From positions 38,006,001-38,070,000 of the forward strand of contig NW_027266297.1 of NCBI RefSeq assembly GCF_022045235.1: a stretch of 64,000 nt of DNA, in the 5' to 3' direction. The translations under genes and the position numbers were made by a program. Below the pieces are notes generated by a model. The model had not been told where the DNA came from. It did not search any database and saw only the letters and a program-made list of their open reading frames with translations. Shown one piece after another: positions 1 to 51,534 of the stretch; position 1 is the first letter of the stretch; the number at the start of each line of letters is the position of its first letter. The DNA is from Haliotis cracherodii. Its lineage: Eukaryota.

Positions 1-2548
1 CGCCAATTAACTATGTTTTCTCCCATAACAGGGCTTGATCTTCAATCGCCAGCAGTGGTTTATTCGCAGTGGTTTATTTTTTTTCACCTAATCTGATTGG
101 CTGCCTGAGAGTGGAGAGTTGTGTCATCGTGTTATGATTGGCTGGCTAAAAATAATTGACGGCACTATTTTCGGATCGGGGATACCCGAGGTCGTCTAGT
201 ACAGGAAATCCCCAGCAGGCAAAACATTACCGTAGTGACAATGTTTCCATTGCCGAAAGTTGATGACCGAAGGAAAGTTTGTGGGGGAAGAAGGGGTATG
301 ATATATGGAGATATATCACAGAATTTCGGCTTCCCAAAGTACCAGATTCAGTTGCAGAATGAGAAGACGGTAACCGAAGCGAGATACCGCATCGATATCA
401 CGGGACCAGGGGAGCAACTCCGGTACATTTTTTACTGGGCGTTTTCAAGGCTAATAACAAAGCTCATGAAACAGTTAATTAATTCATGTAAAAATACCGA
501 TGAAATAGTGAAACAAACCATATTGTTTGGTATTTATAAAAAACAACAACTGTCAACCACATAAGAAATGTCACCTTCCAACAAAGTTTTGATCTAGAGC
601 CGATCGATCAAAAACATATTTTATAGATCTATTAAATTAATCGAGACTTAAATTTCATATTTTAAGAAAATAAACACTCAGATAATTTGGATCTAGAGCA
701 ATACTCAATTTTAATGCAGGAAACGATCAATCTTTGTTGGACGGACCGTACATCTCACGACCAAGATGTTTTGCAACCACAGCAGTTGTTTCCCCTTTCA
801 ACAGGTGGAGTTTACCAAGATCAATATAATTAATGTATTTTGGCCTATAATTATTTGGTATTTTTTAAACATTAAGACTTCAATTATTTAAACATACTAT
901 CTCAGGACAATTAAGAAACTCATTATGAAAAAAACAACATTACCCCGTTAAAACTTGAATATATTAAGTCATACCTAAATCTAAATAAACTCCAGAAAGT
1001 AATATATGTATTTATATTTTTTCTTAACTATTTTGATTTATTATAGGGAGCAGACAAAATGATGAAGATAAAGATAGTGGGCACCAATCAACCTTTTTTA
1101 GGTATTTTTTTCAAAAGCAATATTCTTTTTTTTCAACAATGATGTACATTTATGCATCTTAAAATATATTGTGTATTTTAGATAGGATGAAACTCAATAT
1201 CACAGTCAATTATTTTCAGAATTTACAGACAATACAGAGTATTAAGATGTGTAGAATTAGGTTTGTCTCAAGTATATTCTTTAAACCAAAGATTTATTAT
1301 TTACCATGATTACTGAAAAAACCCACTTCTTTAGAAATGCATTAGGAATGTCTAATTTTAATTTAAATACTTTTTGCCAAAAAAAAATCACATATGAACA
1401 GGTCACTCAAATACATATTTATTATTATGTCTTGTTTTCATGAAGATAAAATGAATGTTTAAGAACATGTTAATTTTAAACTACCTTATCAGTAAGTCTT
1501 AATTCTAATCTGATAAAATAACAAAAGAATAAAGTTTGGAGGTAACTGTTGCAGTAAAATTACAATGTAAAATTACAAGGGTATCAAAATGCAAATATTT
1601 GTAGAATTACTGAAATGATAATTTATTGTTTACATACTATCCTATGTATTTATGTTTCACACACAAAAAATTATTGTGCTTGTCAAATTCACATTGTTTC
1701 TTGTCATTCACAAATATGGGGAAATTAGATGACTCATTTAGTAACATTTGGTGTCATGATGTTAAATATTATGTTCAAAAGAAAAACTGTCAACTGAAAA
1801 GGGGTTTTTTTATATCATAAAAACACATGGGCTCACAATGTTCAGGAACAAAAAAAATTGTAAAAAAGATGACATGAAATATTCATCATTTTACACATTA
1901 AATTATTCACTGTAAAACTAGTTTTAAAGAGGTAAATTCGTCCAAAAAATTTACAATCCATTGAAGGATTTGAGAAGATGTAATCAGCTGATCAGTTGCC
2001 TGAGTTGGTAATATTATAAAATCTTGCCTGATCAATCCTGCTGACAGTTCCTTTGGGCACTTGTTTTTCGTTAACAATAGTTCACAATATATAAGACAAT
2101 ATTTAATTTCCTCTTAATTGGGTTTATAACATTTGTTTCTAGCGAACAAATAAACGAATAAAGTATTTACATACACTAAAAAGTGGGCCTATTTAGTGTT
2201 GCGCATTGACAATGATAGTCACGACGAGACGAATGCAAATAAAGTTATGGGCCGAGAAATCCAAAACCATTAACAAATATCAAATCACATTACTAATTCT
2301 CAAAACGTTACCCCCATCAGCTTTTAAAAGTTAACAAAAAACATAACACGAATGCTAACAAGTGGCTTGCCTGTCACGGAAACTTCGTGTGAGTTGTCTT
2401 CGCTAGAACCTTTTTACCTGTTTATGTTACAGTTGTCTTACTGAGCATATTCGAAAACGAGGCTGGGGGGAATCCCGAGTGGTTCCTAAACACGGGAAAT
2501 CTTCAACTACGAGCTCGACTTTTTATGGCGTATTGTTATGGGAGAAAA

Positions 2549-2703
2549 AGGATTAACCACTGTGTTCGGTTGTTACCGAAAAATCTACACACTCGTGATT
2601 AATCTGTCACAATTAGAACTCGGCAAAGCCTCGTTCTAATCGTGACAGATTAATCACTCGTGTGTAGATTTTTCGGTAACAACCGAACACAGTGGTTAAT
2701 CCT
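2549..2703. repeat. Long hairpin element 1 (about 70-bp arms, TC/TC mismatches)
   Basis: Near-perfect inverted repeat with apex AAC-TC-GGCAAAGCC-TC-GTT. Confidence 0.9.
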
Positions 2704-3220
2704 CTATGTAACTAACTAGGCTTATGTTTGCTTCACATTCAGCGTGTTTATTCCACAATCACTTGTACACACCGTCTCCGACACTTGTCAATACAACTGT
2801 AAAAACAGCGGGAATTGATTTCAGCTTCACCGGTTATCACATGTTAGGTCACATGTGCAATATGCAAATGCTTACCGATACTTCCGGCTCTCGAATTACG
2901 GATGTTGATTGTTTTACCGTGTCAGGTGGTTTGACAATCTGCATCGAGGCGAGGGTCATTTCAACTTTATTTGCAGAAATTATTAAACTTTATTCAAGGA
3001 AAGAGATACAAATCATGTTTATGTATGGAAAACGTTATTGGAACAGTTATTTAGGACGAAATGCGAAGTTTTATTGTCAAATGCTGGGCTGGCTATCGGA
3101 CGCCGGTTGACATCGCCAGTGGAAAAAAATGTGAGATCTTCGACTCCGTGTATAAGACGACCCCCCTTAGCCCCCCCATTTAAGGTACGAAAAACTCGCC
3201 TTATACACAGCGATATACGG

Positions 3221-8318: not shown

Positions 8319-8897
8319 CTGCACAGGGGAATAGGATTAGGGATTTGGGTAAATTTGACATATTTATGAAAACTGTTCTATTCAATTAGAAAAGACATGG
8401 TCAGAGTTTTGTCGTGTAGCCAGGTCAGAAACTATCCACTGACAATATATATTCACTCACTTTCAGTTTTCTGTAAGTTTCAGTGATTTCTTAGAACAAT
8501 ATTTCATAACAGTTTGAATTTGATTTTTTTTATGTTAAATTTTCAATTATGATCACTTGAATACCCATAGAAAAAATTCTCCAAAATGCTCTGGAGAAAA
8601 ATGTGTTTGTTTGTATATTGCTGTACCGGTATTTATCATCCAAAACTGGCTCCCACAGGAGATATCGCTTGGATGAGATCAAGCGATATCTACACTGTAG
8701 ATATCGCTGCAATGAAATTACATCACAATGCTTTGCAAACCATTGTGACGTCACTGGTTACCATGACGTCACAATCAAATGACATCACTTATGGCTCTGC
8801 TACTGAAGCTGTTTGCAGTACTTTTTACACTGAAGACACTGCTAATTACTGTCTACAAATTGAAAAAGTTGAAAGAATGATGTTGGATCATAAATAA

Positions 8898-9041
8898 AAT
8901 CTAACCCTCGTGTCTTTTGATATCAAATATATCAACACTCGTTGATAAAAGTGGCAAAAATCCTCGGCAAGCCTCGGAATTTTTCCACTTTTTTCAACTT
9001 GTGTTGATATATTTGATATCAAAAGACACTCGGGTGAGATT
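8898..9041. repeat. Long hairpin element 2 (TC/TC mismatches)
   Basis: Inverted arms with apex CC-TC-GGCAAGCC-TC-GG and further CTCG motifs in direct orientation in both arms. Confidence 0.88.
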
Positions 9042-9135
9042 CTCTATATGTTGACATGTTGTTTGTGTTGTTGTTGTTATCACTGCTATCCTCACAACAC
9101 CAAGGTCTGACAATATACCACTTCATGGAGAGTCA

Positions 9136-14242: not shown

Positions 14243-14987
14243 GTGAGTAACAATCAATAAAATTTATTTGAAAAAATGATGTCATGCATATGGCAGTTAG
14301 CATGCTGATTTTACATTGACTCTATTTTGGTCCATGAGTTTTTAGTATAACTCATTATATAACTGGTGATGCACCAGTTTGTATTGTAATATGTATCTAT
14401 CTCTGCCCTGATCATGGTGATCAGCTGTGGTCCTAGCCACATGAAATATGATCATGAAATATCGCAATAATTAATTAACAAAGATAGCTGCATATGCGCT
14501 AATACTAAGAAAGCGAAATTAAGCCATTCCGGCATTACGGAATATTACAATATTACAAAATTACAAGAAACTTGTGCTTTTTGAGAAATATCTAATTTGC
14601 TTGTGATAAGCATTGTCATTGAGTTTTGATCACATGGTTACAATCTGATCGAGGATTGGTAGTCAGGTGACTGCAAATGGCTATATGTATTCAGATGTAG
14701 TATTTGAAGCACTATTGACCAAGTTCACTACTAAATATGAACCGCTTGCACAGTCACATGACTGCCACTTCTTACCCAGATTGTAACCTCGTGATCAAAA
14801 CTTCATTGTTTAAAATACTTAGTAAGCATCATCCTCGCAGTAATTTCAGTGATGATTTATGTAAACAAGGAAAATAATTTCCATGAAATTGATGTGCAGA
14901 TATTTTAGCATTTGAAACCTCCGAGAAATCATGCTAACGCCATCATGTGTATCAAGTATCATGTATCATGATTTCTACTGTTTACAG

Positions 14988-19346: not shown

Positions 19347-22006
19347 AGTGTCTGGACTATCACTAGTTACCTTGTCACAGGTCTGTACTGTACGTAACAC
19401 TGCTATCAAGCCGGGATATAGGGTTGCTCATACTGTTCCAACATAATTTCCATGCTGATGACAATTTGGTGTATTATTTGTTGCTTATTCTTATCGGGAT
19501 TATTAAATACAGAAGTCAGGTTAAGATGTCATCACGCCTATGATCCTCCGACAGTTGGACTCCAACCAAAGAAAAAACATTCTCCATGGTGTAAATGATG
19601 TTATATGAAGTCTAAGTGAAGGGAAGTTTTGGTTTCCTTTTAATATGTTATTGCATGGATAATTCTTACATACACATTTGTGAGCGTATCACCTGTACCG
19701 TATTTTAATGTAATATTTGCTCTGAATTTTCATCATAAGTTATAGAGTCAGTAGGTTAGCCTAGTGGTTAAGGCATTTACTCATCAAGGCAAAGGCTCAT
19801 GCTTGAATCCTAGCATAGGTAAAATGCATGAAGCCCATTTCTGGTGGCCCCAGATGACATATTGCTGGGATGCTGCTAGAAGAAGCAAAAGACAGTACTC
19901 ACTCCGAGATAATGTGTTGAATAACAAGATCAGAAAAAAGATATTTTACACGCCCTTCTCTAGCCTAGGAGCAACTTCTGTCATTATCTTACTTCCCTTG
20001 GGCATGCCAGGATCTGTGATCATGGGTTTGAATTCCAGATTTCCCCTGATTAAGATCACTGGATTGTATGCACCATGCCCGAGCTCAGTCACTCACTCAC
20101 TTCCTCCTGTTTAGCTGACATGCAGGGATATACTTGAAACTCATTTTTCGGGCAGATGGGATATGTCCATTTGGACTACATAGTTGCTTTTGGGGATGTG
20201 TCATGTTGTTTTCTGCCTAGTATGTAATGAACATGCATTCAGTTGGAAACTACCTTTGCCCAATGCTTGTGTCGTGTGAGTAATCTGTTCTCAAAAAACT
20301 ATAGTCACTCAAGTCACTGTGATCAGTTGGGAAGAACTTTATATAGCATGAAAGTGAGTCTCCAAACATATGATAGTGTACCATTCGATCACTTTTCCTT
20401 CTCTGCAATCATGTTGAGTGGTCTTGAGGTTGAGCCAGGATCTTCTGGTCATTGGTTTGAAGCCCAGCTTCACCAAATTATTGTCATCCTTGGTCGGTCA
20501 GCACTTCCAATTAACAATATAACTGTGCTACTTGTGGCTTTCATCATACTGTAAGCTGACATATGGTGATAGAACACTGTTCTAGGGGTAATTTGTCCAC
20601 TCATTTCAACTCAATCATGTTGACAATTCAAGTTAAGCTTGGCTGGTCACACCAAGACCTGGTTCGATTCCCCACAAGGGTACAATGTGTGTAGCCCACT
20701 TCTAGTATTGCAGGCTAAACGCAGCATGAAACCATACCCACTCAAATTAGAGAACACAAAGAAGGCCCTAATCTTCCAACTCTGCTTGGATTCCTACCGA
20801 TCTAGTCAATGTATTCCAGACAGGTAGGTGTGAGATAGGGATCATGATGTCACGGAAGCAGAAGGTTTAAGCGTCCATACATCAAGCATGAGACTTCTTG
20901 TTTTTAGTTGTTTCCACTTCTATTCAGATACTGTTTATCGACATGTGTTCATTTCAGTCAGTTTGTGACACTTTCTATGTATGTTTGTATTTATGTAGGT
21001 ATACATGAATAAATTTTTAGTAAAATGTCAGTTTGTTTGGTTGTGATATGAGTCAGTTCATGTGTCTCTGATCCCTTCATGGTATCAAGTCTTTGAAAGA
21101 CATTTAGAAGTGATACACATGTGGGAGAGAGTTTATGGATGTCAACTTCTTTATAATGGGGAACACAACGTTTCGGAGTTTATGAGTGTATGCTTACCCG
21201 ATTCCCATGTTGAAGGAGTAAGCGTATACTCCGAAACATGTTGTTCTCCGTAATAATAGAGAAGTTGACACCAATAAATTCTCTTCCTATTGGATGGTGT
21301 TCCCATGGCTTTCGTAAACTGCTTCTTGCCAACCCCATTCATTTACAGGGACGGATCCAGCATTTCAAAAGGGAGATAATTTTACTACAAAACACTGCAT
21401 TGGGTTTTCAAAATTGTGGGGGTGGGCACCCTGTACCCCTCCCCGTGTACCCATCTGGATCCGCATATGATTCATTTGAATTTAGGTTAGAATAGGTTCC
21501 AGCAACCTATGCGTGTCCTTCGATGCGACTTAATGGATGGGGTAGTTTGGCTCCGAGACTTGACTCTCAAGCTTGTCAGAGCTGAAGTATCCACGCAGTG
21601 GGCAGGATCTGTGACGGCTATTTCAGAATGCATCATCATGCTAACAACCACTGATTTGCCTAGCCGAGATCCGATAATCTACAGGCCGCACTGGTATAAC
21701 TTGTCTGGGTGAGACGAGGAACAAATTAACGTTATGCACGTATCATGCGCAAGACGAATAATTTAATAAACATTCTGCATGCTCCCGGGAAAACGTGTTG
21801 TTCCTCAGATGATCTAACAGAACGCAAAACAAAACATCATCTCATTATGTTTTTAATTTATTATTTATAAAATATACATACAGACTTGTTTGATCATATA
21901 GGCAAATACGTGAATGCAAAGAGCACCAGCATAATCAATCATACAAAGTTCTGACTTTAAAATATTGTCCATGCTTTCATTTTTACGGTCACTATTTGGA
22001 ACCGTG

Positions 22007-29891: not shown

Positions 29892-29983
29892 CATCTTCCC
29901 GAGGCAAGGGGGATAACTGACTCTAAAAGTCCACTGGAAACTGGACTTTTTGAGTCAGTAAACTCCCTTGCCTCGGGAAGATG
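29892..29983. mobile_element. 92-bp hairpin MITE inserted in a family 2 copy
   Basis: CATCTTCCCGAGGCAAGGG / CCCTTGCCTCGGGAAGATG, 8-bp TSD GGATA(C/G)AA. Confidence 0.8.
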
Positions 29984-30322
29984 GGATAGAAAGACAACCA
30001 ACCATGTCACCGTGTCATCCGACCCCTTCAGTCGCCTGTTCGATCAACATATAGGTTGCTGGGGACCTATGCCAACCACAGGCCCCTGAAGCAAGATAGT
30101 ATTTATATATGGGGGTCCAGTGTTTCAGTAACATCACTGTCCTGGTTCAGGGGCCTATGATTCTAACCTTGAATCCCCACGTTGCTGAACAATACTATCC
30201 CCAAATATTTGTAGACCTTAAAAAACCTACTGACTATACTAATTAAAATTGTTATGTAGTGTGTTTTTTCTCATAAAAATAATATTAATAATAATATAAA
30301 TACAATATAAACAATATAAATA

Positions 30323-32641: not shown

Positions 32642-32820
32642 AGGGACGGTCGGGTAGCCTAGTCGTTAAGGTGTTCGCTCGTCACACCCAAGACCCGGGT
32701 TCGATTCCCGACATGGCTACAATGTGTGAAGCCCATTTCTGGTGTCCCGTGCCGTGCTATTGCTGGCACATTGCTAAAAAACGGTGTAAAACCATACTCA
32801 ATCACTCACTCACTCACTCA
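32642..32820 (+). mobile_element. tRNA-derived SINE, family 1
   Basis: Same head and (ACTC)n tail as the 19179 copy. Confidence 0.9.
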
Positions 32821-35055
32821 GCAGTAACGAGGTCGCTTGTTATCAGTTAATATTGGTATTAACTTACATATACTACATACCAAAAAATTTAATATACACA
32901 GTCTAATTTCAAGATTAACAAAACACTTAGTACATACTTCCACTTATCAGAGATCGACTCTCTCTACAGTTCAGCTGAACTTCTATTATCGATCCGTCTT
33001 ATCGATTGATCAGTATACTATAGCTTATTGATCGAGTTTAAAAACATATAGATCAAATTACTTTCAGTGACAAAGTCTGATAAGAGAGCACACGCTAGAA
33101 CACGTCATTTATGGCGAGTGCCTGTTCATTTTATATACATACTGCAAACACAAGGCAAAACACTGGAAGAACGTGAGAAACAATCACATAGGTCTGGAAG
33201 TACTACCCAGTGTTATGTGGTAAAATAATCTGTTTGACAAATCATAACAGTGCTACAATGAGTTTTGCTCGTATGGGGTATTATGACATAAATATCTAAG
33301 ACCTTAATTTAAAAACTAGTTTCATTAAAATATGATAAATACTTGACATGAGTGCTAGAATATTAAAGTTTTTAAAGTATTTAAGTTCCCTAAAGCTATT
33401 AGATGTTTAGGAAATATTCCAATAAATAAACACCGACTATAATTACATAAATTAGTGAACTAATTATATCTAGTGTCAAAACTACGGTCTGTACATGCAC
33501 TATCACCTTATATATGCAATACTCATTAATATTAGTTACATCTTTTTAGATCTTACTTAATTCTTACATAATCGTCAAATAAACGAACACAAATGAATAA
33601 AATAATACATTGTTTCCTAAAGAATGTTTTATTGACAACGTTTCTTAAATAGATTTTAAACATGATAAGACTTTATGAAAATACAAAATACATTTTCTTT
33701 TGAAACATTGAGTTAGGCATATTCAACACCAAAGCAGAAAAGTATCCTGAGTTATGGCAGTTATTTAGTATCAATTCATTAAATAAACAGACTAGCCCTG
33801 TTCGCAGCAATGACGGGAGTATCGTACTAGCCACGATCTCGCTCACAATGGCCTCCCTGTCCGTGTGTGTAAACAAAAAAAAGTTTCAAAGTTATTTAAA
33901 ACCAGGCCACACATACCTTGTTATTGGAATAAGCCCGTGGTATCATATTATCCGTATGTACATTTTCCAGGAGTGTGTACCATCCGTATAAAAGCATGTA
34001 GATTCCTATTGACCACACTTATTTCAATCAGGGTGCCTGACCTACAAGTCTCGTCATGGGTATCCATGGACGCGCCACCATTACCGCGAGTCCCGTACGC
34101 TGCTGTAATCTCGCCGCGTTCAGCGTGTTGAGTTCGAGGATCGAACCACAATAAGAATGTTGGGAAAATATATCATTAGGTCTTCTTCCTTTTTTTATCG
34201 AAAATTGTGAGAATACTATTTTTTCGTGAAGATGAACAGGAAAACAATTCCCGTGTAACACTGCATTAAGGATAAAACCAAAGAAAACATTTAGAAAATA
34301 CATACATAAATCACCAAGTAATGTATAGTTTACCTAACTCAGATGATATAAATACCATGAAGTCAGTAGCTATCTTTATCACATGTTCTTTAAGGTTTCT
34401 AAGCGTTGTTAATTGGAAGCAAATGTCTTGTCAGTCACTTGACTACAACAGTTACTATATATTGTTCTTATTGTAATCTATCTTGCCCACAATGAAATAC
34501 TGAATATACACGTCTGTCAGTCTATTCCTTCACAACTACTTAAAATATAATGTAAAGGAAAGCAGGCCGTCATACAATTACGAGAACACATTAGACCGAT
34601 CCTACTCGGAAATCACCAATACTTTGTTCCCATGTGATTTAAAAGGGAAAACACTTATTATAATGTAACTTCCGAGTTTTTATAAACCATAATATGAAAT
34701 AATAAAAACTTCTAGTGGCATTGACAGTTGGTTAGTAATACATCACTGATAAATGTATTCACAACTTATTTTTGTTTTCAATCTATTCGACTGGGAATGG
34801 AATGGAAATGAGTTAGGGATTTTAAACAATCGTTTTACTTTAGCTTGGCATTGGGGTTGGTGTATCATGTGTAGAAATATACACTATAGCCAATGAACAT
34901 GTGTTTGACTTATAACAAACGCAATGTTCTAACAATGTTAAAACCGTGACAGAAATAACGACGGCGTGCATATTACCTATCGCCACCCATAACAATCGTA
35001 TGATATAAATAACCCAAAGAAATATGACCATACTTTGTTTTGGCAATATATGAAA

Positions 35056-35097
35056 GTTTTCTTTTGAGTGATATTGGTGGCCCTAAAAAGGGCCGTT
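35056..35097 (-). promoter_or_regulatory. Histone-type 3' end processing signal (SLBP stem-loop plus purine-rich downstream element)
   Basis: Minus strand reads AAC GGCCCT TTTT AGGGCC ACCAA (stem-loop 35094-35079), then CAAAAGAAAAC about 12 nt later. It starts 35 nt after the stop codon. Confidence 0.92.
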
Positions 35098-35129
35098 GAA
35101 AAAGCCAGACAAGGGCACAGTAAATGACT

Positions 35130-35609: not shown

Positions 35610-37507
35610 TGCATCGCGCGGACGTGATAGAAGACAAGCAACAAATGTTCGGTGACGACATAAATGGCGTTAGAAGTATCGCCTTATTGTGTTTGTTGAC
35701 ATATATCAAATTGATGTTATCGTATGCGTAACGTGTGTACCGTCCATATAAATAGTATCACGTCACAGAAAGACCTTTTAATTTTAGGAAAACTCATTCA
35801 TATAATCAGTTGCAGCCAATTTATTCAGAAGTTTGTGTCTCATAATGTACGCGTGGACACTCGTCAGAGCTGTTCGCTGTTTTAGAATACCTAAATCTTA
35901 CAACATGATTCACCATAAATGTGATTCACTTATAGTTTACGAACAGATAATATCTGGGTACCCATAAAACCCGTGACCCGTATGTACTTTATTAAACACG
36001 GGTCAATATATGTCTCTGCAATTGTACAGCGGCGCACAGCGGCAACGTTCAGCCATTTTGAATGTTACCAGTTTCTGAAATAAACAAAATATTATCATAA
36101 ACGACTGATTCGGCCAGTCACAAGGAGTTACATCATTCTCTTTACATTATTTTTAGGCGGCGATCTTTAGATGCATTTAAACTATAGTAACAATACTGCG
36201 ATAGTTAAACACAATCGCGATACTCAGACACTATTAGAGTCTATGTAGAATCTATATGATCTAGATCTACTTCCTCACAGTAGATTTTCCAGCATCGTAT
36301 CACGTCCGCAATAGTTTCTACGTTCAGTAGGTTACTGGGGTAGTTTACTCTGTATGTATTTACTATAAAGTATAGTAAATGTCCTGAAAGAGTATGTGCG
36401 GGGATTCCGGGTTCCGGCAACCTGTGCTGGTCGTAAGAGGCGACTATAAACTAGATCATCGGGTGGTGTCGTACCCTCACGATGTGAGACGTCCATAATA
36501 TCAATCTCTGGTTTGTCTGGTCCTGATTCCTTTATAGACCGCCGACATATTGCTGAAATATGACCAGGCATCCATGCGATAATCTGAAAGCTGACATTCA
36601 AGGAAAAATTATAGATCTACCTGTATTGCAGTAATTAGTACTGTGATTCAGACTGACATTAGGCCTATTTCCTCGAATGTCGTTATAAATTAGATCTCGT
36701 ACGTTTGAAAAGGAAAGGCTCAAGTCAACTGCGCAGTATTTTAACTATTTTTCTAAATCTATTGATTGTCAATAAAGTGTTTGAATCGATTAATTTGGAA
36801 TAGTGAGGTGAAAAAAAAAAGGAAACCCAAGAAAAGGAGTATGCACATCACTTCAAATAAAGCCGCCATGCAGAGCTGTTTTTCCCTTGTCGCACGTCTT
36901 CGATAACTTGACCTGGCATGTGTCGTTACACTTCAAATGTGGTGCAATGTTTGTGTACATGAACGCGTGAAGAACCATCGGCATCGGCATCATTCATATC
37001 GGTCTTAACATTTTACAGCAACTTCAATCGATTGCCCTCGGTTACCAAAGACGCAGTCATTGTGAATAATCTCTTTTGGGAAACTATACAATGCAAAAAA
37101 GGTAAGTGACATTTTGTTTTGAGGTGAAACTACAGAAAAATACACCAATGTCATCAGAAGATTGTTGGCCCGATACCAACAAACACGTTCATAACGTCGA
37201 TGATCGACTCCGATCTGGACGCTCAAGGGCAATTAACAACTCAAGTTCATGACAGATTGGTCGGAACGATGGCGTAAAGAAAGACGTGTTTCAAACTGCC
37301 ACTCAGATAAAGGACCGGTTGCAACGGGCAACTGGTGTAAGAGCACAGGCCCAGACGGAAATCGTCATGCACAGATGGCATTTGCGTGCGCGACGTCCAC
37401 GAGTCTTTCCACAACTTACTGCACTTACTGTCATTTGAATCAAAGGCGTTAGTGGTATAGGGAACGTCGACGATGGGCTAATGTGATGATTTCTGATGTA
37501 TCGAGGT

Positions 37508-37941
37508 TCACTCTCGAATTCCATGACCGAAGCAAGATATTATTTTGGGGTCACTCTCGAATTCCATGACCGAAGCAAGATATTGTTTTGGGATCACTCT
37601 CGAATTCCATGATAGACCGAAGCAAGATATTGTTTTGGGATCACTCTCGAATTCCATGACCGAAGCAAGATATTATTTTGGGGTCACTCTCGAATTCCAT
37701 GATCGAAGCAAGATATTGTTTTGGGGCCACTCTCGAATTCCATGACCGAAGCAAGATATTGTTTTGGGATCACTCTCGAATTCCATGACCGAAGCAAGAT
37801 ATTGTTTTGGGGTCACTCTCGAATTCCATGACCGAAGCAAGATATTGTTTTGGGGTCACTCTCGAATTCCATGACCGAAGCAAGATATTGTTTTGGGGTC
37901 ACTCTCGAATTCCATGACCGAAGCAAGATATTGTTTTGGGG
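37508..37941. repeat. 43-bp tandem repeat, about 10 copies
   Basis: Unit TCACTCTCGAATTCCATGACCGAAGCAAGATATTGTTTTGGGG. Confidence 0.95.
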
Positions 37942-38039
37942 TGGATCCATAATGGTATGAGCTGGTATCAGAATGACTGGTCACAGGTCACTACTAGCAG
38001 GACAACATCACGACACCACTCGTGGCTTCGACTGGAAAT

Positions 38040-38975: not shown

Positions 38976-39006
38976 CATCATTGTTTGATAGTTAGAGGTC
39001 ATTTTA

Positions 39007-39154
39007 TGGCAGTTTATATACAATACCCCATATCAAACTGAGACCCCCTTATCAGCCCGAGGGTCGAAGGTCGGGGGGGTGATATGGGTGCCGAAGGCCT
39101 GAGGGCTCATATGGGGGTCGAGGGTTGATATGGGGTATAATATGAAAACTGCCA
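39007..39154. repeat. Long hairpin element 3 (GA/GA mismatches, i.e. TC/TC on the other strand), partly rearranged apex
   Basis: TGGCAGTTT...ATACCCCATATCAA and TTGATATGGGGTAT...AAACTGCCA arms, CCGAAGG-type apex duplicated. Confidence 0.75.
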
Positions 39155-39893
39155 CATACTAACCTTTTTATCATATACCATAACATGGAATTGTAAAATG
39201 TATCCATTCATAAAACATCTCTAAATTCCGTCTATGTCCGTAAAAGCAATAAGAAAAAAATATGTTTACCTTCTTTGGAAGATATTGTCACGGGAAAGCT
39301 AGCCTAGCAGACGACGCACCAAGGGACGTAACTCTAATTTCTGACTACCCATGGCTGAAATCGATCGCCCAATCAAAATGCATTGATTGTCATTTAAATT
39401 GCATTTAAAGAAAGTGTTATCAAAATCGTCGACCTTTCATGTTTTGTACCTTGGCAACCAACCATTTCTTGCTCCTTTAACACAATTAAAGCTCATTCCT
39501 CTATTGATCGTTAGTTTGACGTGGCGTAGAACAATAGTCACTCACTCACTGCATCACCCACCCACCCCCCACCCCGTCAAAAAAGTTAACTACGGCCTTG
39601 CTATGTCTCCAAATTCAGCACACAGCACGATGCGTGTATGTATGTACACTTACTAGCAAGACAAAACACAACTACTAAAACACAACACTTTATGTAAAGA
39701 ACACACGATGCATTGCACACTAGTAAAATACAAAATGATAGGATGACTTTACAAAACGAATTTAGCCGTTGTTTTCATTGTAGTATTGCAGTTTGTTAAT
39801 GAAGTCATTCTTTTTATCACAGATGTCTGCCTTCAGTAGCATGGTTGATATTGATTCATAGCACTGAAAGTCTTTACTGGTACCTATAATTCC

Positions 39894-45287: not shown

Positions 45288-45600
45288 TTAACGCCGCTCT
45301 TAGCAATATTCCAGCTATATGATGGCGGTCTGTAAATAATCGAGTCTGGACCAGACACAATCTCATTAAAATAAGATCTTCGTTCTCGCTATCGCTAACC
45401 AAAGCAGCGAGAACTTAGATCTGATTTTAGTGAGATTGAACCAGGCACCACAGTGTTTGATATCATGAACATTGATCCACGCAATTGGGATACGATGACA
45501 TGCATCAAACCAGGTCAGCGAGCCTGACCACCCGATCCCGTTAGTCGCTTCCTACGTCAAGCATGGGTTGCTGAAGGCCAAGTCTAACCCGGATCTCTTA
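45288..45600 (-). mobile_element. Short retroelement family 2 with an inserted 81-bp hairpin MITE (45358-45438)
   Basis: Family 2 sequence resumes after the palindrome CAATCTCATTAAAAT...ATTTTAGTGAGATTG. Confidence 0.85.
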
Positions 45601-48063: not shown

Positions 48064-48231
48064 GGGGCGGTCGGGTAGCCTAGTGGTTAAAGCGTTCGCT
48101 CGTCACGTCAAAGTCACGTTCTATTCCCGACATGGGTACAATGTGTGAAGCCCGTTTCTGGTGTCGCCCGCCGTGATATTGCTGGAATATTGCTAAAAGC
48201 GGTGTAAAACCATACTCACTCACACACTCAC
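48064..48231 (+). mobile_element. tRNA-derived SINE, family 1
   Basis: Full length, 13-bp TSD TCGTTACGCTATA. Confidence 0.92.
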
Positions 48232-49371
48232 TCGTTACGCTATACAAGCAAGCGAATGTTGTCTTTACGCCACAGGCGGCAATATTTCAGCTATATCGCG
48301 ACGGCCTTTAAATTTTCGAGTCTGGGCCAGGTGATCGGGCAAGGACCTAGTTTATGCATTTCCCTTGGCTTGAGATATTGAGGATCAGAAAAGTGGCCAT
48401 TAAAACTAAATATATAAGCAAATGTACCCAGAGTGTGGAGTCAAGTTATTAGAATTACTAAATTCAAATATTCACTGACATAAACATTCGTCACCACTCG
48501 CCCCTTTCCGTAACCTGCAAGAATTAAGACTCTCGCTATTCGGCGTGTCCCGGAATAACTCGAGTTGGTCACGAATGTGACATAAACTAATACGTTGTTA
48601 ATTCAATAACAACATTCAGCCAGTCTAGGTTTACCGCAAGGAGATCCAGGTAGGAAAGTAGATTATTCTTCATTTTTCGATGAACTTGGCTCTGTCTTTT
48701 CACATCAAAAGTTTACGACGCGCAAAGAACGCCGTCACGAGCATTGTGATGATGTCGTCACAATGACATTAAAATGACGTCATAATCCTGCAACCCGACA
48801 CTGCATTCGTCACCGTCCCTTTGCGTAACCTGCAGGCTTGTCCCGGAATGACACGAGATGGTCACGAGTATTAGACACTGCTGTATAATGTGGCTAGATA
48901 ATGCGTCACGTGTGCTGGAGACACCTTGTTCTGACAGCGGTATGTGTGTACAGTGCTGATGTTGAAAAGTTTATGGGGGCGGTCGGGTAGCTTAGTGGTT
49001 AAAGCGTTCGCTCGTCATGCCGAAGGCCCGGGATCGATTCCCCGCGGGGATACAATTGAGTAATTGTGTGCATTAATTATCAATTATTGATACTACTATG
49101 TGGCTTATAGTATTATCGTTATCATAACGTCTTACCAACGCTATCATTTTGTTCATCGTCATATTTCTCTAAAATAATTATATGGCTTATGACTTTAATC
49201 AGAATATATATTTCTAACGTGTGTGTAATTGTGGCATATGTTTACGCATGAAACATAATTTGAACTAGCCTGATGGGGAATATTACACTGGTCGAAAATG
49301 TGCACATGTCCGATGTTAAAACAGTGTAAAGTCTGCATGCCATTTCAAACAGGGTGTCAAAGTGGTCTGGT

Positions 49372-49578
49372 CTGGTCCGATAGGGTATGCTACTGTGGTA
49401 TAACATATGCACGACTGGTCCGAAAGGGTATGTTACGGTGGTCTAACATATGCACAACTGGTCCGATCGGGTATGTGACGGTGGTCTAACATGTGCACGA
49501 CTGGTCCGATAGGGTATGTAACTGTGGTCTATCATATGCACAACTGGTCCGAAATGGTATGTTACTGTGGTCTAAATA
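49372..49578. repeat. 43-bp diverged tandem repeat, about 5 copies, abutting hairpin 4
   Basis: Unit approximately CTGGTCCGATAGGGTATGTTACTGTGGTCTAACATATGCACAA. Confidence 0.88.
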
Positions 49579-49589
49579 TAGAATGCTTC

Positions 49590-49715
49590 ACTCGCTCCCG
49601 TGTAATACCAATTTTATGAAACTCGTGAATAGTTGTGGTATCGGACTCGCTTTCGCTCGTCAGATACCACAACTATTCACGAGTTTCATAAAATTGGTTT
49701 TACACGGGAGCGAGT
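49590..49715. repeat. Long hairpin element 4
   Basis: Inverted arms of about 55 bp with apex GAC-TC-GCTTTCGC-TC-GTC. Confidence 0.88.
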
Positions 49716-50353
49716 TTAGTATTTTATTTATTACTTGCCATTTATAACTTTTTTAGAATTATACAGTTGAGTATGAATAGGCTGACACCTGCACGATCCA
49801 CGGCATAGTCCAATTGAGTTTAAAAGAATAATACTTCAAACACGTCAAAAGTTGAAACGACTATGAATTCCCAATTTAACAAAGTAAGGATAAACTGTTA
49901 CAAATTACCCTGTACATAGTGGACATGTATGCATGCCATGTTCTGGGAATGATAATGTGAACAATGCGCAGTTCAGAACTATAACAAAGAAAGATTATTC
50001 CTTTAACATATTTTTTTATTCTGGCATTTCTATATTTATAAAATCTCATGTGTGAAGTCAGCTGTAAAGACAGTTGGCAAGAGATTACTTGTGTATAAGT
50101 TCTTACACTGGAGTGAGTGAGTATGGTTTTATGCCGCTTTTAGCAATATTCTAACAATACCCATGTGGGGAATCAAACCCAGACCTCTCGGTAATGAGAA
50201 ACGACTTCACTACAAGGCTACCCAACAGCTCCCCCATTCAGTGGATGAGGATGGGTTTGTAAACCTTGTTGTAGAATACAATATACTGTAAATATCTAAA
50301 TATCATAGTCTATGCATTCAATAATCCAAATGAAATCACTTTCTTTTTATATA

Positions 50354-50480
50354 TACTACTCAAAAGAAGTTAAGGATCACCCGATTCTTTCATATTGGTA
50401 ATATTAATCTTTCATGGCATGAGAGATTAACTATTGTAATATGAAAGAATCAGGTGATCCTTAACTTCTTTTGAGTAGTA
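50354..50480. mobile_element. Tc1/mariner-type palindromic MITE
   Basis: TACTACTCAAAAGAAGTTAAGGATCACC TIRs, TA flanks. Confidence 0.88.
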
Positions 50481-51534
50481 TATTTGAATATGCTCAACCA
50501 TGTCAACAAATATTTCTACAAAATTTACTTTTTCTGGTGTCTTATTTAAATGATCCAATCATCTAAGTATATACAACTAGTTGTAAATAAATAAATATTG
50601 TGACTTACAAGCATGTGATGGGTCCAGCCCTTAAGAAAACAGTCACTTTTCAAGACGTATCTAACAAAAAACAAGTTAAATTGTTGACAAAAGGTGTGTT
50701 TGTATTATTAAATTATTTTAGACTGGGGTAAATATACCTGTACCGACATGCCTGTCATGTTTAGAAAAGATGAAATATTAAATAAGTAACTGAAATAACT
50801 AAAGATGAGTCCTACAAATTCAACAGTCACTTAACTAAATACAATCACAGTTCTTCCCCAACCAATCAAAATAATAACATACTACACCAACATGTTGAGA
50901 GTTTACCTTTAAAATTTAAACACAAAAATGAAGTATTTCTTGTTATAAAATTGATGCAAAATGTAAAAACAGGAACACTACTTCAGCACTTGGGACGAGT
51001 GAATGTTTCTTACTTCACTTCAATGCTAATAAACAGATAAAGTTGAGTAAGGAGTAAACAATTGAGCAGGTTCATATTCCTTTTTAAAGTAAATGTGTCT
51101 TCAGTTCTGCAGTTATGAATGTGAGATTCTAATCAAGAAGGTAGACTAAATACATTTGACAACACACACAAAATAAGTAGATCTCATTACACAGTACAGG
51201 TGTCCAAAAACAGCTCGACTGAACATGAGCCATAGATTTCACAACACTACTGATATGTCAAACCATTCACAACTTTAGTTCTCAGTGTTTCCAGCTATGT
51301 GGCTGTGCTGATGTCATGGGTGGTACAATTCCTTAAATAAGTGTTGCAGAAGAAAACCAAACAGTCAAACATGATTTAGCCCTGCTATAAAACAAAAGGA
51401 ACAGCAAATACCAGGTTCAGGAGATTAAACTGATCAATAATCCAAACTGTACTGATCGACAGGGCCAGGGCAGGATGACACCATATCAACCAAGTCACAG
51501 AGTCAGACCTCCTGATCTGTTTGGTCGCCTCTGA

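What the first reader, a model, noticed from the sequence alone, without database searches (positions are those of the whole stretch)
2549..2703. Family of long DNA hairpins with unrelated arms but a conserved periodic TC/TC mismatch code (copy 1)
Seen: four 125-155-bp hairpins (2549, 8898, 39007, 49590) whose arm sequences do not resemble each other. All carry C-TC-G (or its complement) in direct orientation at mirror positions, giving 2x2 mismatches beside a short GC apex and, in three copies, again about 17-31 bp down the stem. Copies 1, 2 and 4 are also bounded by TCT(C)TAT-like and A-rich flanks. Established: tyrosine recombinase sites are inverted arms around an asymmetric core, and integron attC sites are recognised as folded single-stranded hairpins by structure rather than sequence. 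Inference: these are recombination or terminal sites of a tyrosine-recombinase (Crypton-like) mobile system under selection for structure. They may already be in repeat libraries without this architecture being noted.
Basis: partly seen in the sequence, partly recalled or inferred. Interest (0 to 1): 0.72.

Follow-up and report, generated by a model that had tools for sequence, protein, structure and literature searches.

The report
Crypton transposon ends that fold up
The hairpin is the end of a recombinase-driven (Crypton) jumping gene, a dozen families in this animal genome end with the same mismatch-marked hairpin, and their landing sites suggest that the enzyme likely swaps only one, probably folded, DNA strand, as bacterial integrons do.

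Summary
Confirmed and extended. Hairpin 2549-2703 ends a 2.69-kb gene-less element (18-2707) derived from a 5.06-kb element, four full copies over 99% alike, with an intact Crypton tyrosine recombinase. Hairpins 8898 and 49590 end derivatives of two other recombinase-coding elements; 39007 follows the same end rules, but no partner gene was found. Of 40 recombinase-domain loci, 20 carry such a hairpin, as do 21 of 80 metagenome relatives. Shared rules: TC/TC loops (GA/GA on the other strand) at fixed distances from a CTCTAT-like end; the element's 5' end is complementary to the bases just inside the stem, so joining the ends completes the hairpin; no target duplication. Targets form a dyad around a 6-bp spacer (A at -8 in 60 of 75, T at +2 in 71 of 75), with the crossover always at one edge. 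By recombinase chemistry that edge is the cut on the GA strand. Likely mechanism (inferred, untested): one-strand exchange of a folded end, resolved by replication. No circle was seen, and a duplex strand-biased route remains possible. Papers searched report no such ends; Repbase was not seen; this scan noted the design in other genomes.

The parts
18..2707 (+). Family 1 non-autonomous Crypton element (2.69 kb), derivative of the 5.06-kb recombinase-coding element L111:3281-8343
   Evidence: 81-87% identity to L111 over both end regions; ends identical in 23 of 23 two-ended copies
18..29 (+). 5' terminal 12-mer, complementary to 2535-2546
   Evidence: sequence
2535..2546 (+). Internal complement of the 5' end, directly outside the left stem arm; would extend the stem once the two ends are joined
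   Evidence: sequence; same rule in 10 families and predicted then found for family 3
2549..2703 (.). Terminal hairpin, 76-nt arms 93% complementary, AAA loop
2620..2632 (.). Apex module: 2x2 TC/TC loop (GA/GA on the minus strand) closing a 3-bp GC stem
   Evidence: TC/TC in 31 of 31 family 1 copies (copies picked by likeness to the window)
2593..2659 (.). Second TC/TC loop (2593-2594 with 2658-2659), 48 nt from the 3' end
   Evidence: TC/TC in 30 of 31 copies, converted to a perfect pair in 1
2702..2707 (+). 3' terminal hexamer, inferred 6-bp recombination spacer; crossover after 2707
10..17 (+). Host half of the target: A at -8 and the 6-bp host spacer left at the 5' junction; joins 2708 directly in the empty site
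   Evidence: reads joining this flank to 2707/2708: 31 in X19, 6 in X18, contigs in X1 and X5 (allele or paralogous repeat copy)
8633..9047 (+). Family 2 non-autonomous element (hairpin 8898-9041), derivative of a 2.4-kb DUF3504 element (L159, L181)
   Evidence: 39 of 39 head-to-tail junctions found in the genome are identical
38992..39386 (-). Family 3 element, decayed and 5'-truncated (hairpin 39007-39154); same apex and end rules, no partner recombinase found
49576..49869 (-). Family 4 element, 5'-truncated copy of a 765-bp family that shares both ends with a 2.41-kb element coding a 522-aa recombinase (L150, L086); apex flipped in this copy (hairpin 49590-49715)

Best explanation
The hairpin is the 3' end of a CryptonA-type tyrosine-recombinase transposon, and it likely works as a folded single-strand recombination site in which only the GA-bearing strand is cut and exchanged. 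Shown: it ends elements that code for, or derive from elements coding for, an intact recombinase; both ends are fixed; insertion duplicates and deletes nothing; targets have a dyad around a 6-bp spacer; the crossover is always at the spacer's right edge; the left arm plus 9-14 nt is complementary to the joined ends. Inferred: (1) recombinases cut each strand at the 5' edge of the spacer, so a right-edge crossover is the minus-strand (GA) cut; (2) during replication this strand folds, and its internal complement would hold the far end next to the hairpin base, templating excision of a single-strand circle; (3) the circle's folded junction (13-bp outer arm, spacer 2 nt longer on one side, inner arm) would recombine with a duplex target, and replication would resolve the junction; (4) tandem G.A pairs would mark and stiffen the right strand while T.C loops weaken the wrong one. 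Step odds: Crypton end 0.97, one-strand exchange 0.8, folded substrate 0.6.
For: Link to the enzyme: 20 of 40 DUF3504 loci carry such a hairpin, mostly 0.8-1.8 kb away; 21 of 80 metagenome relatives carry one downstream, against 2 upstream in equal sequence (judged by eye). End rule in 10 of 10 families with both ends defined; the predicted 5' end was found in 4 of 8 family 3 copies. Empty sites gap-free at the junction, for example L129/L003 into family 2 at 100%, L115, L124, L132, L216. Target: A at -8 in 60 of 75, T at +2 in 71 of 75; 6-bp spacer is the best dyad in 3 of 4 families and pooled, second in family 2. One crossover: in 30 family 4 copies chosen without regard to the 3' end, 28 end in the same 8 letters and left flanks are host-like; two-strand exchange without homology should mix them. 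T at -1 (57 of 75) and A at -2 (43 of 75) match the element's last two bases, where swapped minus-strand ends would pair. Code: 37 of 46 2x2 loops in 22 representatives are TC/TC. Conversion and flips erase it in single copies (family 4: 76 TC/TC, 5 converted, 3 flipped, 5 point-decayed, 1 unread of 90 site pairs; 16 of 100 listed rows with GA at the left apex), yet TC polarity holds at the apex in 11 of 12 family representatives, also when the gene is inverted. Strong stacking of tandem GA-AG in DNA: PMC8163305, passages. Fold is Cre-like.
Against: No circle or single-strand intermediate was seen: no 2707-to-18 joint among the 15 joints shown of 26, at read depth of about 10-25. The unfolded junction also forms an imperfect inverted repeat, so a duplex route can give one crossover. 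Family 1 lacks the -1/-2 match (T 9 of 23, A 9 of 23). Only the apex loop is general: family 1 lacks the outer loop, C13 lacks both outer loops, and 4 of 11 C3 copies lost the outer loop. Two DUF3504-linked families (L173/L120, L180) have perfect hairpins without the code, and 16 of 40 loci have no hairpin near the gene. Computed energy favours the GA strand by only 0.9-4.6 kcal/mol in 11 of 12 families and disfavours it in one. The model is nearer Cre (TM 0.42-0.44) than integron integrase (0.30). An exact 5' complement was found in only 6 of 15 metagenome loci with at least 450 nt upstream.
Confidence: 0.6

Rival explanations
1. Strand-biased recombination on duplex DNA, as in bacterial SE elements and Tn554. 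One strand is exchanged at the 6-bp spacer without folding, and the hairpin does another job (priming the second strand, a cruciform for an accessory factor, or an RNA structure).
For: It explains the dyad and the single crossover. SEs place the target's 6 bp at the left junction and the circle's 6 bp at the right, via a double-stranded circle (PMC10214605, passages). The fold is Cre-like. Some families lack the loops.
Against: It does not explain why the left arm runs on as the exact complement of the far end across the junction in 10 of 10 families, nor the loops' fixed distance from the cut. SEs carry a variable host footprint and need four genes; here the spacer is fixed and one gene is found.
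Confidence: 0.25
2. The textbook Crypton model: a double-stranded circle and two strand exchanges between short direct repeats, with biased repair hiding the heteroduplex.
For: It is the proposed model in print (PMC13565253, passages). A 1-2-bp AT repeat flanks most family 2, 4 and C3 copies.
Against: There is no 4-6-bp direct repeat; family 1 flanks share nothing with the end; ends are unmixed in 28 of 30 unbiased copies; copies whose left flank lacks AT still end in AT.
Confidence: 0.08
3. Helitron2/Helentron-type elements that captured a recombinase gene and move by a Rep-helicase.
For: Asymmetric terminal inverted repeats of 8-15 bp with a 3' hairpin, and insertion without duplication, are Helitron2 features (PMC3627910, passages).
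Against: Full elements of 2.25-5.06 kb hold only the recombinase. Many divergent recombinase families each have their own hairpin. The stem is about 70 bp against a 20-30-bp terminal region in Helitron2. The 6-bp target dyad is a recombinase signature.
Confidence: 0.03
4. The palindrome is a relic of an old inversion, kept symmetric by conversion; the mismatches are inherited and do nothing.
For: Arm-to-arm conversion and flips are seen; families share ancestry.
Against: The same conversion erases TC/TC, yet it survives in fixed register where the arms no longer align, and in distant metagenome relatives.
Confidence: 0.04

Closest known systems
CryptonA DNA transposons of animals (Kojima and Jurka 2011, PMC3212892, passages and section 8; Glomhoppers, PMC13465315, passages)
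   Same: A single DUF3504/Phage_integrase recombinase with intact catalytic residues, abundant non-autonomous derivatives, no target duplication.
   Different: The 2011 paper found no terminal repeats in animal Cryptons, and neither paper contains 'hairpin' or 'palindrom' in the main text. Here the ends are defined: long coded hairpin, end-joining complement, 6-bp target dyad.
Integron attC sites and IntI (Loot et al. 2012, PMC3458562, abstract and most of the introduction)
   Same: Information in structure more than sequence; an unpaired spacer in the folded site; one-strand exchange with replicative resolution (inferred here).
   Different: No cassette array or attI. The enzyme is Cre-like, not IntI-like. 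Marks are symmetric 2x2 loops, not single extrahelical bases. The site is complete only after the ends join.
DIRS1 retrotransposon internal complementary region (Piednoel et al. 2011, PMC3266345, passages)
   Same: An internal stretch near the 3' end complementary to both termini, proposed to template the circle junction; tyrosine recombinase; no duplication.
   Different: No reverse transcriptase, no long terminal repeats, no 3-bp shared junction; the complement is fused to a 70-bp hairpin.
Strand-biased circularizing integrative elements and Tn554 (PMC10214605, passages)
   Same: 6-bp spacer between imperfect inverted repeats; target spacer ends on the left, circle spacer on the right.
   Different: Their spacer is copied from the donor flank and varies; four genes; no 'stem-loop' in that paper's text.
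Helitron2 (Bao and Jurka 2013, PMC3627910, passages)
   Same: Asymmetric terminal inverted repeats plus a 3' hairpin.
   Different: HUH Rep-helicase; short hairpins; no recombinase.

Membership tests
CryptonA | DUF3504-type tyrosine recombinase as the only coded protein | tested here: met
   Pfam DUF3504 and Phage_integrase over cut-off for L150 and L152; DUF3504 exons in L111; one long ORF inside L150
CryptonA | Intact catalytic R-H-R-Y residues (unlike domesticated DUF3504 genes) | tested here: met
   Spliced model of L111 (splice sites predicted, no RNA check); R271, R404, H427, Y436 invariant and H401 nearly so in 26 relatives
CryptonA | No target-site duplication and no classical terminal inverted repeats | tested here: met
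   Gap-free empty sites; the inverted copy of the 5' end is subterminal
CryptonA | Placement in the CryptonA clade by phylogeny against Repbase reference elements | not tested
   No tree built and no reference sequences held; named relatives are mollusc, coral and hemichordate KIAA1958/ZMYM-like entries
Crypton (fungal and oomycete type) | 4-6-bp terminal direct repeats | tested here: not met
   At most a 1-2-bp match in three families, none in family 1; also reported absent in animal Cryptons
Integron attC/IntI | IntI-type integrase with attI and a cassette array | tested here: not met
   Best folds QRICH1 and Cre; IntI at rank 30; no cassette array, only head-to-tail repeats of one element
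Integron attC/IntI | Binding and cleavage of one folded strand; replicative resolution | not testable with these tools
   Indirect support only: single crossover and strand polarity
DIRS1 | Reverse transcriptase/RNase H and inverted long terminal repeats | tested here: not met
   No such ORF within the full elements
DIRS1 | Internal region complementary to both termini | tested here: met
   10 of 10 families
Helitron2/Helentron | Rep-helicase transposase | tested here: not met
   Full elements code only the recombinase
DDE MITE | Terminal inverted repeats with a target duplication | tested here: not met

The most novel reading that the evidence does not exclude
Animal Cryptons are single-strand 'fold-and-paste' DNA transposons: a Cre-like recombinase picks one strand by tandem sheared G.A pairs, an internal complement templates end joining, and only that strand is exchanged with a degenerate duplex target. 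This would be a eukaryotic counterpart of integron cassette recombination, reached without an IntI-type enzyme.
Probability: 0.5. Interest if true: 0.85.

Novelty: new variant of a known kind. Interest (0 to 1): 0.7.

Why it matters
A 2026 review states that Crypton transposition has not been shown experimentally and assumes a double-stranded circle (PMC13565253, passages); animal Cryptons were described as lacking terminal repeats (PMC3212892). This locus gives exact ends, a target rule, a predicted cleaved strand and young intact elements (an intronless 522-aa enzyme in a 2.4-kb element), so the question can be tested directly. It also gives a structural rule for classifying many unassigned hairpin repeats in animal genomes, and a possible compact integrase that leaves no duplication and needs almost no target homology.

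Tried and rejected
genome patterns with too short a gap, uninformative. shuffle control was faulty and was redone; the tallies matched nothing and were redone. Viral contigs: no recombinase relative. Family 1 head-to-tail junction: 0 matches in the assembly. Circle search in reads: nothing listed, depth too low to mean anything. Expression: no RNA holder listed; splicing of the L111 gene is unchecked. Rfam: no family over any hairpin. No recombinase similarity in the window or the 19 family 3 loci. Covariation between arms rejected as evidence because conversion produces it. A 2-bp AT duplication rejected because copies without AT on the left keep it on the right. Literature: nine searches, eight aimed at Crypton or Eulor ends, listed no paper describing this architecture; most hits were seen as listings only. 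The Eulor description paper is not held, and that Eulor5/6 are hairpin-like is recalled, not checked. Repbase, Dfam, subscription journals and the papers' supplements were not seen and may describe the hairpin.

Full report
Observation. The four hairpins are real. The best stem score in the window is 62 against 10-13 in 25 shuffles. Copy 1 has two TC/TC loops, 3 and 28 pairs from the apex. Copy 4 in the window has only the apex loop, and copy 3 is decayed. No Rfam family covers them.

Each hairpin ends a longer repeat. The genome (1.18 Gb) gave 40 scored copies of copy 1 at 94-100% identity. The element spans 18-2707. Five family 1 hairpins lie 1.5-1.8 kb behind DUF3504 exons. The full element is 5.06 kb, with four complete copies 99.2-99.6% alike. 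A six-exon model gives an open frame of about 445 residues with R, HSAR, H and Y (predicted splicing). Family 2 (8633-9047) shares both ends with a 2.4-kb DUF3504 element. Family 4 is a 765-bp family sharing both ends with a 2.41-kb element that codes a 522-aa protein with DUF3504 and Phage_integrase over cut-off. Its model matches QRICH1, then Cre (TM 0.42-0.44), with integron integrase at 0.30. No partner gene was found for family 3.

Link to the enzyme. I fetched 10 kb around 40 of the 151 DUF3504 matches, chosen by hand to be diverse. Twenty carry a hairpin of this type (four with the apex deleted), mostly 0.8-1.8 kb from the domain; 4 carry another hairpin; 16 none nearby. In two groups the hairpin lies upstream of an inverted gene, yet still reads TC/TC towards its own end. 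Of 80 metagenome relatives, 21 have such a hairpin 0.17-1.07 kb downstream (16 of the 31 with at least 1.2 kb downstream), against 2 upstream in 113 kb versus 111 kb (judged by eye; several loci are the same family). The design is therefore not confined to this genome.

Three shared rules. First, with the hairpin at the 3' end, the apex loop reads TC/TC in 11 of 12 family representatives; the twelfth (L163) reads GA/GA and looks like a flipped copy. Of 46 2x2 loops in 22 representatives, 37 are TC/TC. In five families they sit 15-17, 46-49 and 71-75 nt from the end. Second, the end is CT(C/A)TA(T/A/C), and the first 9-14 bases of the element are complementary to the bases just outside the left arm in 10 of 10 families with both ends defined. 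I predicted the family 3 start from this rule and found it in 4 of 8 copies. It also holds in 6 of 15 metagenome loci with enough upstream sequence. Joining the ends extends the stem across the junction with a spacer 2 nt longer on one side; 39 of 39 family 2 head-to-tail junctions show exactly that join. Third, insertion is seamless: joined flanks match intact host repeats without a gap (five of 32 listed cases had a gap elsewhere within 10 nt), and reads join the window element's own two flanks.

Target site. In 75 two-ended insertions of four families (tandem members and mis-anchored rows dropped from 83), T stands at +2 in 71 and A at -8 in 60. The best dyad has a 6-bp spacer 5' of the insertion point in three families and pooled; in family 2 it ranks second. 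The crossover is always at the spacer's right edge. In 30 family 4 copies found by left arm and apex only, 28 end in the same eight letters and left flanks are host-like, apart from two that abut another element end. A two-strand exchange across a non-matching spacer would be expected to mix these. Tyrosine recombinases leave a 3' phosphotyrosine and a free 5'-OH (PMC3458562, introduction), and cut each strand at the 5' edge of the overlap (recalled for Cre). A right-edge crossover is therefore the minus-strand cut, the strand whose loops read GA/GA. The swapped ends would pair at -1 and -2, where T (57 of 75) and A (43 of 75) match the element's last bases in three families but not in family 1.

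Maintenance of the code. Single copies lose it by two-base TC-to-GA conversion or by apex flips: 5 converted and 3 flipped of 90 site pairs in unbiased family 4 copies, and 16 of the first 100 of 349 matches with GA at the left apex (counted by eye). Such events show exchange between the arms, but any long palindrome may do this after insertion, so they do not prove a role in transposition. They do show a pressure that would erase the code, which has nonetheless persisted. Tandem GA-AG mismatches stack strongly in a sheared form in DNA (PMC8163305, passages), which offers a physical basis for strand choice. The folding program gives only a 0.9-4.6 kcal/mol edge to the GA strand.

Mechanism. 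Most likely the GA strand folds when single-stranded, its internal complement captures the far end, the recombinase exchanges that strand to free a circle, the folded junction recombines with a duplex dyad target, and replication resolves the product. Element identity, ends, target rule and single crossover are shown. Strand identity follows from known chemistry. Folding, the circle and the role of the loops are inferred. Against: no circle seen (weak test), only the apex loop is general, two linked families lack the code, and bacterial SE elements give the same junction pattern through duplex circles (PMC10214605, passages).

Comparison. It files as a CryptonA-type element by domain and catalytic residues; no tree was built. 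It works, by inference, like attC, but it is not an integron. It shares the end-templating complement with DIRS1 (PMC3266345, passages) and the asymmetric repeats with Helitron2 (PMC3627910, passages), but lacks their enzymes. Kojima and Jurka found no terminal repeats in animal Cryptons, the Glomhopper paper has no mention of hairpins, and a 2026 review calls the mechanism undemonstrated. Kojima 2018 notes terminal similarity between salmon Cryptons and human Eulor5/6 without describing structure (PMC5753468, passages). Repbase and Dfam entries and supplements were not seen. Earlier notes of this scan report the same design (52 findings in at least 16 genomes, 8 shown); I reached this reading before seeing them (notes), and they are not independent evidence.

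Verdict. A known transposon group with an end architecture I could not find in print and a specific, testable mechanism. Interest 0.70.

Noticed in passing
window 45358-45438: Decayed end of a DUF3504-linked family whose intact hairpin (L180:6243-6330) is perfect and lacks TC/TC; 78% alike.
   Followed up: partly
L173:3081-3242, L120:3002-3161: An 80-bp near-perfect hairpin without the code, 2.2 kb from a DUF3504 hit in L173; possibly another Crypton end type.
   Followed up: no
window 50351-50483, 29892-29983, 21123-21287, 14622-14802, 48168-48304, 30074-30162: Further long hairpins of unassigned repeats; 48168 has an apex resembling the triple-loop metagenome type.
   Followed up: no
L242, L245, L247, L251, L254, L269, L271, L315: Metagenome relatives stack two or three TC/TC loops at the apex, 2 bp apart; L245 and L315 are flipped.
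   Followed up: partly
L003/L129, L216, L229, L096, L220, L225: These elements insert into or next to each other; families 1 and 4 hit the same small palindrome inside family 2, 2 nt apart.
   Followed up: partly
G000:C23:29642890-29644152: Four family 2 junctions at 413-nt spacing, a head-to-tail array of at least five units; could come from rolling replication or self-targeting.
   Followed up: no
G000:C80:2.6-2.9 Mb: Cluster of about a dozen DUF3504 matches in long open frames (515-929 aa), perhaps a domesticated gene array.
   Followed up: no
L191, L195, L204, L205: The 19-nt unit of the family 3 arm has expanded into minisatellites.
   Followed up: no
window 35054-35099 (-), 32648-32719, 48987-49045: Rfam histone 3' stem-loop match and two weak tRNA-like matches.
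   Followed up: no
window 37505-37942: Tandem repeat with a unit of about 44 or 88 nt.
   Followed up: no
L152:7373-8575: A 400-aa ORF that looks like a Tc1/mariner transposase beside a truncated Crypton copy (label from recall).
   Followed up: no
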